A stretch of 64,000 nucleotides of DNA from the NCBI GenBank assembly GCA_964252035.1, contig OZ176205.1, one strand, 5' to 3'. Made by a program: the position numbers. This DNA is from Podarcis erhardii (lineage: Eukaryota). Positions 23,901 through 26,900 of the stretch are shown here, piece by piece (the first letter of the stretch is position 1; each line of letters starts with the position of its first letter).

Positions 23901-26900
23901 TCACCACCACCATTGACAGCCGGTTCTGGTTTAGATTTCTTAGCTTCATTATCTCCCTGTTGAGTTTCTTCCTCGGGTTTCCTCTGAAGACAAAATTGTT
24001 TAGTCTTCACCAAGCACAATTTCAAATGTAAAGTATTAATAAAGAATTTCTAGTGCTATTATGCATTTACTATTAATAAGCTGCCAACTGAACTGGGCTT
24101 TAAAACTGTTCTGGGCTACAGCAAAGGTTACAAGGTGCATATTGCTGCTTCAGCTATTGGAAAGTTGTCCTCCAATACTGAAAGCAATCTAGTTCTGGGT
24201 TACCTAACAGTCTCAAAATCAGAAGGCAGCTCTCAAAATCAGAAGGCAGACTGTAGAAGAGATCAAATATATGGAGAGATTTTGTTAAGAGGGTATCTTT
24301 ATTTTTGCCATTCTGTTAACATTGTATCTTTTCTCCTTTCCATTGATGCTATCAATAGATGGGCAGCCACTGTTGCATATAAAAAGATTTCTCTTATATT
24401 TTTCGGAATGTCTCTACCCAAGATTCCTAACAGAAAGGCTTCTGGTTTCTTTAAAAATGTTAATTTGAATGTTTTTTCATATCATAAATATTCCAAAATT
24501 TTTGGACTTTTCTGCATGTCCACCACGTATGATAAAAATCTCCCATTTTTTCTCCACACTTCCAACACTTATTCAAACTATTTTTATACATTTGAGATTT
24601 TTGATGGTGTAAGGTACCACCAAAACTGCATTTTCATCATATTTTCTTTGATGGTGTGACATGCAGTAAAGTTCATGTTAATTTTCCAGAATGATTCCCA
24701 TTCTCTCATCATAATGGGACATCCGATATCCTGCGCCCATCTAATCATGACCACCTTCACCTTCTCGACTTCCCAGTCAAGGAGGAGTCAGTACATCCTT
24801 GTGATAATCTTGGTGTCATTATTTAACAGCACTATTTCAAATTTAGAGGGCTCATTGGCAAATTCATTTTATTTGTCCAGTCTGAATGTCTCAAAAAGTT
24901 GATGATACACAGACTATGTGGAGATGGCTCAATTAACAAATAGATTAAGAGGTAACACCAAACAATGATTTTCTCAAAAATGGGAAATGTTTAAGAGATA
25001 CTTACAAAAATATTACAGTGACATATTATCTATGGTAGTATTTGAATGACCCTTGTGTACATAAAATATTAAGAAATAAAGGAAAATTGGTATGCTAGGT
25101 TGTAAGAAAGTATTAAAAAATATTGAATTAATTGTAAGGTAATAATTATAAGTACATTCAATATCACAAATGTCAACTATATTGGGAAATCTATATTTAT
25201 TTTACTTTAATTTGTTGTTGTTTTACTTTATTTTATGTACCATTGTATGATTTTAGCTTAGCTGATACCTAAGTGGAATTAGGTTAAATTAACATTCTAA
25301 GTTAAACAAATTTAAGAATATGTATATATTGTATGTATGTGTATGTGTGAAGTTAAATTTGTAATGACATTAATGAATTTCAATAAAGAATTTTTTCATC
25401 AAAAAAAGGGGGTATCTTAAGATACAAATAGTTTGCTTGTTTTAGACTGTCTTTGCTATTTTAACCAATTCTCCTTTCCACTTGAAATATGGGAACCCAG
25501 CTCAGCCTGGCTGTGACATTCAGTTTATATGTATTTCGTGCTACCTGTAAACTCTGAATCTCTACCCTGGACAATTTTGCAGGTCCCCAACACATCTAAA
25601 TTCTCAAGTGCCTGCAGGACCCACACAATTAAGCTTTGAAATTAAACCAGGGTGAGTCAGATGAGCACAGCACAGCACAAAACCATCAAAAGCTACCAAG
25701 TGCGCTAGATTGGCTCCCAGTGGAGAAGATATTATGCAGGATTTCTAAAATTTGTAGAAGCAGAATGATCGAAGCTTTTAAGTGATGGCTTAAGTCAGAC
25801 ATAGGCAAACTCAGCCCACCAGATGTTTTGGGACTACAACTCCCATCATCCCTGACCACTGTTCCTGTTAGCTAGGGATGGTGGGAGCTGTAGTCCCAAA
25901 ACATCTGGAGGGCCAAGTTTGCCTACACCTGGTTCAAGTACTGCAAGCCAGTGGTTACCTATTTTTGTTAGTTGTATAGGACACAAACCTTTTTTCTGAC
26001 AAGATGGGAGATGTCTGTAATACACTGAGGAGCTCCATCCGTTTTTTGCCCAGCTGGGATCTGTTACAAAACAGAAGGCAAAATATGAAATACTATAGAA
26101 CAGCAGAATTAAACTGCTTGCTTTAGGGATTAGTATCACTTACAGCTGAAGCTGGATTGCTTTCAGTTGCCTGTGGAAAACTAGAAGATGATCCACCAAC
26201 CTGGAAACAAAGAGATCTATCAGTCTAAAAGTCACTATTAAAAGCCTACTGGGACTAAACTATAAACATGTACAATGAAGAGCACATCGGTTTTGAAGAA
26301 CAATTTATAAAATTTAAGGTGTAATGAGAAGCAATAATGAGGAAGCTGGTCTGCAGTTAATTTTTCAAGCTCCCAATGTTTTTTTAAGACCACAAGAGAA
26401 GTAAACAGGTGTCTCATCTGTAGTGTGTGAACCCCCAAGCTATTTTGCAGTTGCTATCTGCAGTCTTGCTTTAAGAATAAGGGACATATTCAAGCCTGCA
26501 TTTCCACTGATGCAACAACTTTCATTCCTATAACAGTGCTTCATCTACTGTCACCTCTAGCTAACTTCCTTCAAATCAGCTCAAGAGTTTGGAGGATCCT
26601 CCGAAACAAATTTTACATGTCATCTTATCATTAATTATTCAACTCAGTGCTTCAAAAGTCATCTCCTACCCCCCCCCCAAAAGTAAAAATGTAGCATTTT
26701 CCACTATAAAACTAAGCATCAATGGCATCCTTTCTTCCCATTTACAGCTGTGTATCTCAGCTTAATTTATTTTGCTATCTGCTCCTCTCTAGCACAAGTT
26801 CACAAAAAACGGTAGTAGTAAGCCTAGGACTCACCAAAGTTGCTTTCAGAGCCAGTTCGGCTATTCTTGCGCTCTTTTGAGACTCCTTTGAATCTTCTAT

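What the first reader, a model, noticed from the sequence alone, without database searches (positions are those of the whole stretch)
24287..25418. 5'-inverted (twin-primed) L1 insertion in a squamate genome
Seen: the 5' part of the L1 (ORF2 zinc-knuckle region) is on the minus strand, ending at ...TEWQK near 24300. The directly following ORF2 sequence (DYVEMAQLTNR...) resumes on the plus strand at ~24911 and runs to AATAAA and an A-tail. The whole is bracketed by a 13-bp TSD (one mismatch) cut at TT/AAGA, close to the L1 endonuclease consensus TT/AAAA. Knowledge: this is the hallmark of twin priming, best documented for mammalian L1. A clear case in a lizard L1 suggests the mechanism is not restricted to mammals.
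Basis: partly seen in the sequence, partly recalled or inferred. Interest (0 to 1): 0.68.

Follow-up and report, generated by a model that had tools for sequence, protein, structure and literature searches.

The report
Twin-primed (5'-inverted) L1 in lizard intron
A decayed 1.1-kb LINE-1 copy in an intron of a lacertid lizard's NASP gene has its upstream half flipped in the way twin priming flips human L1s, which makes it a clean but ordinary example of a known insertion mechanism in a reptile.

Summary
A 13-bp direct repeat, matching at 12 of 13 positions (24287-24299 and 25406-25418), brackets one 1,106-bp L1 fragment. Minus-strand 24305-24907 encodes the C-terminal part of L1 ORF2, including the CCHC knuckle. 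Its most C-terminal residue lies next to the left repeat. Plus-strand 24912-25049 encodes the last 45 ORF2 codons and the stop, followed by a 351-nt 3'UTR, AATAAA (25382-25387) and A7. Against one lizard ORF2 fragment (P0017), the minus arm covers residues 1-204 and the plus arm residues 209-253. The two arms therefore abut to within four codons. Both nick sites read TCTT/AA. This is the geometry predicted by twin priming. The rivals each need an unlikely coincidence: two separate insertions, a later inversion, or a copy of an already inverted element.

The window is a lacertid NASP locus (95% protein identity to Podarcis muralis NASP). The insertion sits in an intron, 280 nt from an exon.

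I could not test three things: nucleotide-level junction microhomology, the empty site in a sister species, and genome-wide frequency. One oddity is unexplained: the target's top strand matches the inverted arm at 17 of 21 positions, 31 nt out of register. The mechanism is known and the lizard case is a modest extension.

The parts
24287..24299 (.). Left (5') copy of the 13-bp target-site duplication, AAGAGGGTATCTT.
   Evidence: (D4): 12/13 identical to 25406-25418. Chance estimate is 18/62,762.
24300..24910 (-). Inverted L1 arm: the ORF2 C-terminal region, equivalent to residues ~990-1207 of a 1245-aa Podarcis ORF2. Its 3'-most L1 coordinate lies next to the left TSD. It is decayed, with two in-frame stops (first bases 24871 and 24790) and two frameshifts that bracket the knuckle region.
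   Evidence: tblastn: P0017 residues 1-204 at E 8e-48, and P0019 residues 990-1181 at E 5e-31. The last 3-6 nt (24905-24910) cannot be assigned to either arm.
24514..24567 (-). CCHC cysteine-rich (zinc-knuckle) motif of ORF2, in a frame shifted relative to the rest of the arm.
   Evidence: It aligns with the CW(R/K)C...H...C motif of the lizard ORF2 proteins fetched.
24905..24911 (.). Inversion junction of ambiguous assignment. ATA at 24905-24907 can be read as the Tyr codon of the inverted arm (the YHQ motif). It can also be read as the first bases of the direct arm.
   Evidence: (P0019 alignment starts at 24907). A 3-nt microhomology here is inferred, not shown, because no DNA consensus was available.
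24912..25049 (+). Direct L1 arm, coding part: the last 45 ORF2 codons plus the stop, with one in-frame TGA at 24966-24968.
   Evidence: P0017 residues 209-253 (E 9e-11) and P0009 residues 118-162 (E 5e-13). The stop codon aligns with the end of both proteins.
25050..25400 (+). L1 3'UTR. It is AT-rich (GC 0.23-0.28) and contains short TTTAT and TGTATG repeats.
25382..25387 (+). AATAAA polyadenylation signal, 13 nt before the A-tail.
25401..25407 (+). A7 tail. Its last two A's are shared with the right TSD copy.
25406..25418 (.). Right (3') copy of the TSD, AAGGGGGTATCTT.
   Evidence: D4.
24279..24330 (+). Unexplained similarity. The target top strand (24279-24299: 8 nt of flank plus the TSD) is 17/21 identical to the antisense sequence of the inverted arm at 24310-24330. 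The last 7 nt are a perfect match.
   Evidence: (D1): 0 of 3,935 random 21-mers and 1 of 3,000 shuffles reach 17/21 anywhere in the arm. The test was chosen after seeing the match.

Best explanation
This is one L1 retrotransposition event resolved by twin priming.

Shown:
- A single 13-bp TSD encloses two L1 pieces in opposite orientation.
- The plus-strand piece is the extreme 3' end of the element: the last 45 ORF2 codons, the stop, the 3'UTR, AATAAA and an A-tail next to the right TSD.
- The minus-strand piece is the ORF2 stretch immediately upstream of it. Its 3'-most L1 position touches the left TSD.
- The two pieces abut in L1 coordinates to within four codons.

Inferred, following the Ostertag and Kazazian model:
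- ORF2p endonuclease nicked the bottom strand at TCTT/AA. That 3'-OH primed on the poly-A and copied about 500 nt.
- Before this cDNA got further, the top strand was nicked 13 nt downstream, again at TCTT/AA. This freed a 13-nt 3' overhang.
- The overhang primed a second cDNA internally on the same RNA and copied about 610 nt towards the RNA 5' end.
- The 3' ends of the two cDNAs then paired, possibly through ATA/TAT at 24905-24907, and were filled in.

The copy has since decayed and has no function. It is intronic and 280 nt from a NASP exon. Its direct arm, poly-A signal included, is antisense to NASP.
For: TSD: 12/13 match placed exactly at the poly-A side and at the end of ORF2 homology.

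L1 coordinates of the two arms: P0017 residues 1-204 on the minus strand at 24898-24305, and residues 209-253 on the plus strand at 24912-25046. The orientation is the one twin priming predicts, with the highest L1 coordinate of the inverted arm next to the 5' TSD.

On the inverted side, one more codon (K) and two bases follow the last aligned residue. On the direct side, two codons precede D. So at most about one codon of L1 is missing or duplicated.

The ORF2 stop aligns with the homologues' C-terminus, followed by AATAAA and A7.

The first nick site TCTT/AA is one mismatch from the L1 endonuclease consensus TTTT/AA (consensus recalled). The second nick site has the same sequence.

The 13-bp TSD falls in the 10-20 bp range reported for human 5'-inverted L1 (PMC4245944 passages; PMC2912911 passages).

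Both arms have the same closest lineage. Both arms are decayed: two in-frame stops and two frameshifts in the inverted arm, one in-frame stop in the direct arm.

There is no other L1 in the window that could confound the reading. blastn with the arms gave self hits only, and tblastn with five ORF2 queries hit only this locus.
Against: No family DNA consensus or closer relative was available. Positions x, y and z are therefore known only to within a few codons, and microhomology at the 5' junction cannot be shown.

The strongest complementarity between the overhang and L1 RNA (17/21) is 31 nt out of register with the observed start of the inverted arm. Simple priming does not explain this.

The same-subfamily test is low resolution. 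For the last 60 residues of the inverted arm, P0017 ranks fourth of 19 (56.6 bits, against 70.5 for P0001), and P0001 does not cover the direct arm collinearly.

The A-tail is only 7 nt and the TSD has one mismatch.

I could not examine an orthologous empty site or read-level support for the assembly.
Confidence: 0.85

Rival explanations
1. Two independent L1 insertions landed head-to-head. One was an older minus-strand fragment. The other was a plus-strand, 5'-truncated copy beside or inside it.
For: L1 copies do nest. The subfamily test is too coarse to prove that both arms came from one RNA.
Against: The minus-strand piece lacks its own 3'UTR and poly-A, whereas target-primed insertions keep their 3' end.

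The plus-strand piece has no TSD of its own at 24911. The repeat matching the DNA after its A-tail lies 611 nt further left, beyond the other arm.

The end of one arm and the start of the other coincide within about 12 nt. In an ORF2 of about 3.7 kb (1245 aa), that has a chance of order 1% or less.
Confidence: 0.04
2. An ordinary 5'-truncated L1 of about 1.1 kb was inserted first. Its 5' 610 nt were inverted later by a DNA rearrangement, or the inversion is an assembly artefact.
For: The end product would look the same if one breakpoint fell exactly at the TSD/L1 border.
Against: One breakpoint would have to coincide to the base with the left TSD border.

None of the 16 inverted-repeat pairs found in 24200-25500 has its arms at the two breakpoints.

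The window has no N's.
Confidence: 0.06
3. An already 5'-inverted L1 copy elsewhere was transcribed by read-through and retrotransposed in trans. On this view the inversion predates this insertion.
For: A TSD and A-tail around the whole unit would also be produced this way.
Against: The new copy's 5' truncation point would have to fall exactly on the old copy's 5' boundary, carrying no flanking nucleotide from the source locus.

No second copy is present in the window.
Confidence: 0.03

Closest known systems
[quoted passage not shown]
   Same: The layout is the same: TSD, then antisense upstream L1 piece, then sense 3' piece, then poly-A, then TSD. The arms abut in L1 coordinates. The TSD is 13 bp, within the 10-20 bp typical of inverted copies. 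The first nick site is endonuclease-like.
   Different: The host is a lacertid lizard and the L1 lineage is non-mammalian.

Microhomology at the 5' junction is the most frequent feature of human inverted copies, but it could not be demonstrated here.

The best overhang-RNA complementarity is displaced by 31 nt.

In primates, 639 of 2,068 lineage-specific L1s (30.9%) are inverted. The frequency in lizards is unknown.
Ordinary 5'-truncated L1 insertion
   Same: The direct arm alone (24912-25407) looks like a typical 0.5-kb 5'-truncated copy with AATAAA and an A-tail.
   Different: Its upstream border does not touch a TSD. It touches another L1 piece in the opposite orientation.
LINE retrotransposition assays in chicken DT40 and human cells (Yamaguchi et al. 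2014, PMC4245944)
   Same: That study deals with the same question, namely which host and LINE combinations give 5' inversions. It ties inversions to long (10-20 bp) 3' overhangs.
   Different: It reported inversions only for human L1 in human cells, plus one Nimb-2_DR insert in DT40, and none for human L1 in chicken cells. The present copy is a natural sauropsid-genome case with a native L1.

Membership tests
Twin-primed (5'-inverted) L1 insertion | Two segments of one L1 in opposite orientation, with the 3' segment in sense orientation and ending in a poly-A tail. | tested here: met
   (minus-strand and plus-strand ORF2 matches). (stop, AATAAA, A7).
Twin-primed (5'-inverted) L1 insertion | The inverted segment is the L1 sequence directly upstream of the direct segment, with only a small deletion or duplication. 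Its 3'-most L1 coordinate faces the 5' TSD. | tested here: met
   P0017 residue 204 lies at 24305 next to the left TSD, and residue 209 lies at 24912. Resolution is at the protein level, within four codons or fewer.
Twin-primed (5'-inverted) L1 insertion | One TSD of about 10-20 bp encloses the whole structure, and neither arm has a private TSD. | tested here: met
   13 bp, 12/13 match. Chance is 18/62,762. No repeat borders 24911.
Twin-primed (5'-inverted) L1 insertion | The first-strand nick site resembles the L1 endonuclease consensus TTTT/AA. | tested here: met
   The bottom strand reads TCTT/AA. The consensus itself is recalled, not taken from a call.
Twin-primed (5'-inverted) L1 insertion | Microhomology at the 5' junction and at the inversion junction. 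| tested here: inconclusive
   No DNA consensus was available. A possible 3-nt ATA/TAT overlap lies at 24905-24907. The 17/21 complementarity lies out of register.
Twin-primed (5'-inverted) L1 insertion | Both arms derive from the same L1 subfamily, that is, from one RNA. | tested here: inconclusive
   The P0017/P0009 lineage is the best match for the upstream inverted part and the only collinear match for the direct arm (2 of 19). P0017 ranks fourth for the last 60 residues of the inverted arm. No close relative was available.
Twin-primed (5'-inverted) L1 insertion | An empty (pre-insertion) site in a related genome shows one copy of the TSD. | not testable with these tools
L1-clade LINE | ORF2 with a C-terminal CCHC motif, a 3'UTR with a poly-A signal, and an A-tail. 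| tested here: met
   Homology to Podarcis muralis proteins that UniRef names reverse transcriptase or zinc-binding domain proteins, including a 1245-aa ORF2. The CCHC motif is at 24514-24567. Pfam has no model that hits these C-terminal pieces: 0 families above cut-off for 3 pieces.

The most novel reading that the evidence does not exclude
The second priming may not have been a random internal annealing.

The 13-nt top-strand overhang plus 8 nt of flank can pair with the L1 RNA at 17 of 21 positions, including the seven 3'-terminal bases. This pairing site ends 10 nt upstream (on the RNA) of where the inverted arm starts. The two arms also abut almost exactly.

Together these facts would fit a 'tether and jump' variant:
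- The overhang holds the RNA by base pairing.
- The RNA already copied by the first cDNA is removed.
- The reverse transcriptase starts the second cDNA at the new RNA 3' end.

This would explain why almost nothing is lost or duplicated between the arms. If lizard L1 insertions commonly show such displaced complementarity and exact abutment, target-RNA pairing would be a determinant of which insertions become inverted.
Probability: 0.12. Interest if true: 0.5.

Novelty: new member of a known kind. Interest (0 to 1): 0.28.

Why it matters
Twin priming is a standard outcome of L1 integration in primates, where about 31% of recent copies are inverted (PMC2912911). One cell-culture study concluded that 5' inversion depends on both the LINE and the host. 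It saw no inversions for human L1 in chicken cells (PMC4245944).

A well-formed natural example in a lacertid shows that a native L1 in a sauropsid germ line can cleave the second strand early and prime twice. It gives a template for a genome-wide census in reptiles, where L1 families are many and young. By itself it is one decayed copy and changes no model.

In the open literature I could search, no paper pairs twin priming with a lizard case:
- 'twin priming' + Anolis: 4 papers.
- 'twin priming' + non-mammalian: 1 paper.
- 'twin priming' + zebrafish: 10 papers.
- 'twin priming' + chicken: 11 papers.

For six of these papers I read the matching passages. The rest I saw only as listings.

The subscription papers most likely to hold prior non-mammalian examples were not held. 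These are Ichiyanagi and Okada 2006 and 2008, and Novick et al. 2009. Priority therefore cannot be claimed.

Tried and rejected
Pfam scan of three minus-strand ORF pieces gave no family above cut-off, only two sub-threshold chance matches. Pfam has no model matching this part of ORF2.

Word-index protein searches found nothing for the knuckle piece. They also found nothing for the direct-arm 45-mer read through its in-frame stop as X.

The exhaustive HMMER search with the 60-aa piece gave 16 hits, the best at 67% identity. These supplied the references used here.

I tested whether the target is itself an old L1, which could have explained the 17/21 match and a 12/12 match between 24331-24342 and 25469-25480. 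I rejected it. Gapped local alignment of 800 nt of reconstructed flanks against each arm on both strands is no better than shuffles: 10, 8, 28 and 82 of 200 shuffles reach the observed score. tblastn with ORF2 proteins hits only this locus.

I looked for inverted repeats at the inversion breakpoints as a recombination substrate. None was found.

Rfam scan of 20-30 kb gave no match.

Four papers were not held: Ostertag and Kazazian 2001, Ichiyanagi and Okada 2006 and 2008, and Novick 2009. What I say of their content is recalled.

Two literature searches were badly framed, with an OR over common words, and gave nothing usable.

Full report
**What is there**

The region 24287-25418 holds one L1 fragment of 1,106 bp (24300-25405, or to 25407 counting the two A's shared with the repeat). 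It is flanked by a 13-bp direct repeat: AAGAGGGTATCTT at 24287-24299 and AAGGGGGTATCTT at 25406-25418. The two copies match at 12 of 13 positions (family D4).

I scanned the whole window for a repeat at least this good within +-5 nt of both ends at the same spacing. It occurs at 18 of 62,762 positions. The analytic expectation is 1.1e-4. The repeat is therefore not a chance match.

The window has no N's. It holds no second copy of either arm (self hits only). It has no other L1 ORF2 match with five lizard ORF2 queries.

**Identity of the two arms**

Pfam has no model that hits these pieces, and two word-index protein searches found nothing. An exhaustive HMMER search with the 60 residues ending in TEWQK gave 16 hits at E <= 1e-3.

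Cluster look-up showed that several hits are Podarcis muralis proteins that UniRef names 'reverse transcriptase (zinc-binding) domain-containing'. One cluster member, P0019, is a 1245-aa ORF2. An unnamed 253-aa fragment, P0017, covers the whole C-terminal region.

tblastn of these proteins against the window gave:
- P0017 residues 1-204 on the minus strand at 24898-24305 (96/208 identical, E 8e-48).
- P0017 residues 209-253 on the plus strand at 24912-25046 (22/45 identical, E 9e-11).
- P0019 residues 990-1181 on the minus strand at 24907-24347 (E 5e-31).
- P0009 residues 118-162 on the plus strand at 24912-25046 (E 5e-13).

On the plus strand, the stop at 25047-25049 coincides with the C-terminus of P0017 and P0009. 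It is followed by:
- a 351-nt AT-rich 3'UTR with short TTTAT and TGTATG repeats;
- AATAAA at 25382-25387;
- A7 at 25401-25407.

The CCHC motif lies at 24567-24514 on the minus strand.

The copy is dead:
- The inverted arm has in-frame stops starting at 24871 and 24790.
- It has two frameshifts bracketing the knuckle region.
- The direct arm has an in-frame TGA at 24966-24968.

**Geometry**

On the top strand the order is: TSD, antisense L1 running from a high to a lower L1 coordinate, sense L1 running from the next coordinate to the poly-A, TSD.

The residue of the inverted arm nearest the left TSD corresponds to P0017 Q204, followed by one more codon (K, 24304-24302) and two bases. The direct arm starts at a residue aligned with P0017 E209 and is preceded by two in-frame codons (24906-24911). 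Only four P0017 residues are therefore unaccounted for, and three of them may be represented.

All the homologues I inspected have four residues between the conserved WQ (WL in two of them) and the following acidic residue plus Tyr, Phe or Ser. So at most about one codon is missing or duplicated. This is inference at the protein level.

The far end of the inverted arm reaches at least 24907, the Tyr of a YHQ motif shared with P0019. Bases 24905-24911 can belong to either arm. If ATA at 24905-24907 belongs to both, it is a 3-nt microhomology at the inversion junction. I cannot show that without a DNA consensus.

**Nick sites**

The bottom strand at the left TSD border reads TCTT/AA. This is one mismatch from the L1 endonuclease consensus TTTT/AA (consensus recalled).

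The top strand at the right TSD border also reads TCTT/AA. The last 7 nt of the TSD and the first 7 nt of the right flank are reverse complements. The inferred empty site therefore carries a perfect 14-nt palindrome centred on the second nick.

**Mechanism**

This is the arrangement predicted by twin priming, described in the passages I read in PMC2912911 and PMC4245944. One target 3' end primes on the poly-A. The other primes internally on the same RNA. The two cDNAs are then joined.

The 13-bp TSD fits the 10-20 bp reported for human inverted copies.

The shown parts are the structure and the L1 coordinates. The order of nicks, the priming and the joining are inferred from the model.

**Rivals**

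1. Two independent insertions. The minus-strand arm has no 3'UTR or poly-A. The plus-strand arm has no TSD of its own at 24911. The breakpoints coincide within about 12 nt of a roughly 3.7-kb ORF2.
2. Later inversion or misassembly. One breakpoint would have to coincide exactly with the TSD border. None of the 16 inverted-repeat pairs in 24200-25500 has arms at the two breakpoints.
3. Retrotransposition of an already inverted copy. The new 5' truncation would have to fall exactly on the old boundary.

None of these is excluded absolutely. Together I give them about 0.13.

**Same subfamily?**

I compared 19 lizard ORF2 fragments with three sub-regions.
- Upstream inverted part (24634-24910): P0017 is best (99.8 bits), followed by P0015 (94.4).
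- Last 60 residues of the inverted arm: P0001 is best (70.5 bits), and P0017 is fourth (56.6).
- Direct arm: only P0009 and P0017 (2 of 19) give a full 45-residue collinear match (57.8 and 53.5 bits). All others score 20.4 bits or less.

This is compatible with one source lineage. It is a weak test, because the nearest available relatives are only about 50-65% identical in protein.

**An unexplained detail**

The 21 nt of target top strand ending at the second nick (24279-24299) are 17/21 identical to the antisense sequence of the inverted arm at 24310-24330. The last seven bases are a perfect match (D1). This target stretch is thus complementary to the L1 RNA just upstream of where the second cDNA begins.

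Significance:
- None of 3,935 random 21-mers from the window reaches 17/21 anywhere in the 611-nt arm.
- 1 of 3,000 shuffles of the 21-mer does.

The test was chosen after I saw the match. The register is also wrong for simple priming, because extension from that pairing would start the arm at 24331, not 24300.

The target is not an old L1. Gapped alignment of 800 nt of flanks against both arms is no better than shuffles.

I leave this as either chance or a tether that held the RNA at the overhang (see the novel reading).

**Context**

The window is a lacertid NASP locus. A 394-aa exon (32651-33832, minus strand) is 95% identical to Podarcis muralis NASP isoform X1 over 80% of its length, 92% to P. 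raffonei, 90% to Zootoca vivipara and 88% to Lacerta agilis.

P0020 maps in 13 collinear blocks from 38404 down to 23346 on the minus strand. The L1 lies in the 1,981-nt intron between the exons at 26060-25989 and 24007-23855, 280 nt from the latter. It accounts for 1,119 nt of that intron.

The direct arm and its AATAAA are antisense to NASP. An aldo/keto reductase exon lies at about 52.2-52.5 kb.

**Novelty**

Twin priming is textbook for mammalian L1. In human and chimpanzee, 639 of 2,068 lineage-specific copies are 5'-inverted (PMC2912911).

Searches of the held library:
- 'twin priming' + Anolis: 4 papers. In the Anolis population paper, the phrase occurs only in the reference list, and the citation supports a statement about 5' truncation.
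- 'twin priming' + non-mammalian: 1 paper.
- 'twin priming' + zebrafish: 10 papers.
- 'twin priming' + chicken: 11 papers (listing only).
- Anolis + LINE-1 + inverted + truncated + target site duplication: 6 papers (listing only).

The U6 study reports lizard U6-L1 chimeras made by template switching. It speaks of twin priming as proposed for mammalian genomes. PMC4245944 concluded that 5' inversion depends on host and LINE, and saw none for human L1 in chicken cells.

I found no explicit lizard case. The papers most likely to contain non-mammalian L1 inversions were not held.

I therefore class this as a new member of a known kind. It is a clean specimen with modest interest.

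Noticed in passing
window 24211-24249: A perfect tandem duplication of a 20-nt unit (TCTCAAAATCAGAAGGCAGC, 2.0 copies) lies in the left flank, 38 nt before the TSD. It is not part of the L1.
   Followed up: partly
window 25789-25938: A long hairpin-like inverted repeat lies about 370 nt right of the insertion and about 50 nt from a NASP exon. It has 65-nt arms that are 83% complementary, with a 20-nt spacer. A 23-mer from it occurs only in these two arms in the window. 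It looks like a MITE or SINE-type element, but I did not identify it.
   Followed up: partly
window 23346-38404 (minus strand): This is the NASP gene of a lacertid lizard. It maps in 13 collinear exon blocks to Podarcis muralis NASP isoform X1, including the large acidic exon at 32786-33733. The block at 28538-28783 matches only 63% with gaps, in the region where the reference has repeated acidic EEDKENDSAV-type units. The repeat number may therefore differ.
   Followed up: partly
window 52205-52549 (minus strand): An exon-like ORF matches the Pfam aldo/keto reductase family (E 2.7e-07). It is presumably the neighbouring gene.
   Followed up: no
window 24293-24299 with 25419-25425: The inferred empty site carries a perfect 14-nt palindrome centred on the second-strand nick. 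As a result, both nicks fall in the same TCTT/AA context.
   Followed up: yes
window 24331-24342 and 25469-25480: There is an exact 12-nt match (TTCTCCTTTCCA) between the inverted arm and the right flank, 51 nt beyond the TSD. In the arm it directly follows the 21-nt stretch that resembles the left flank. blastn E was 0.026 and gapped alignment was not significant, so it is probably chance.
   Followed up: yes
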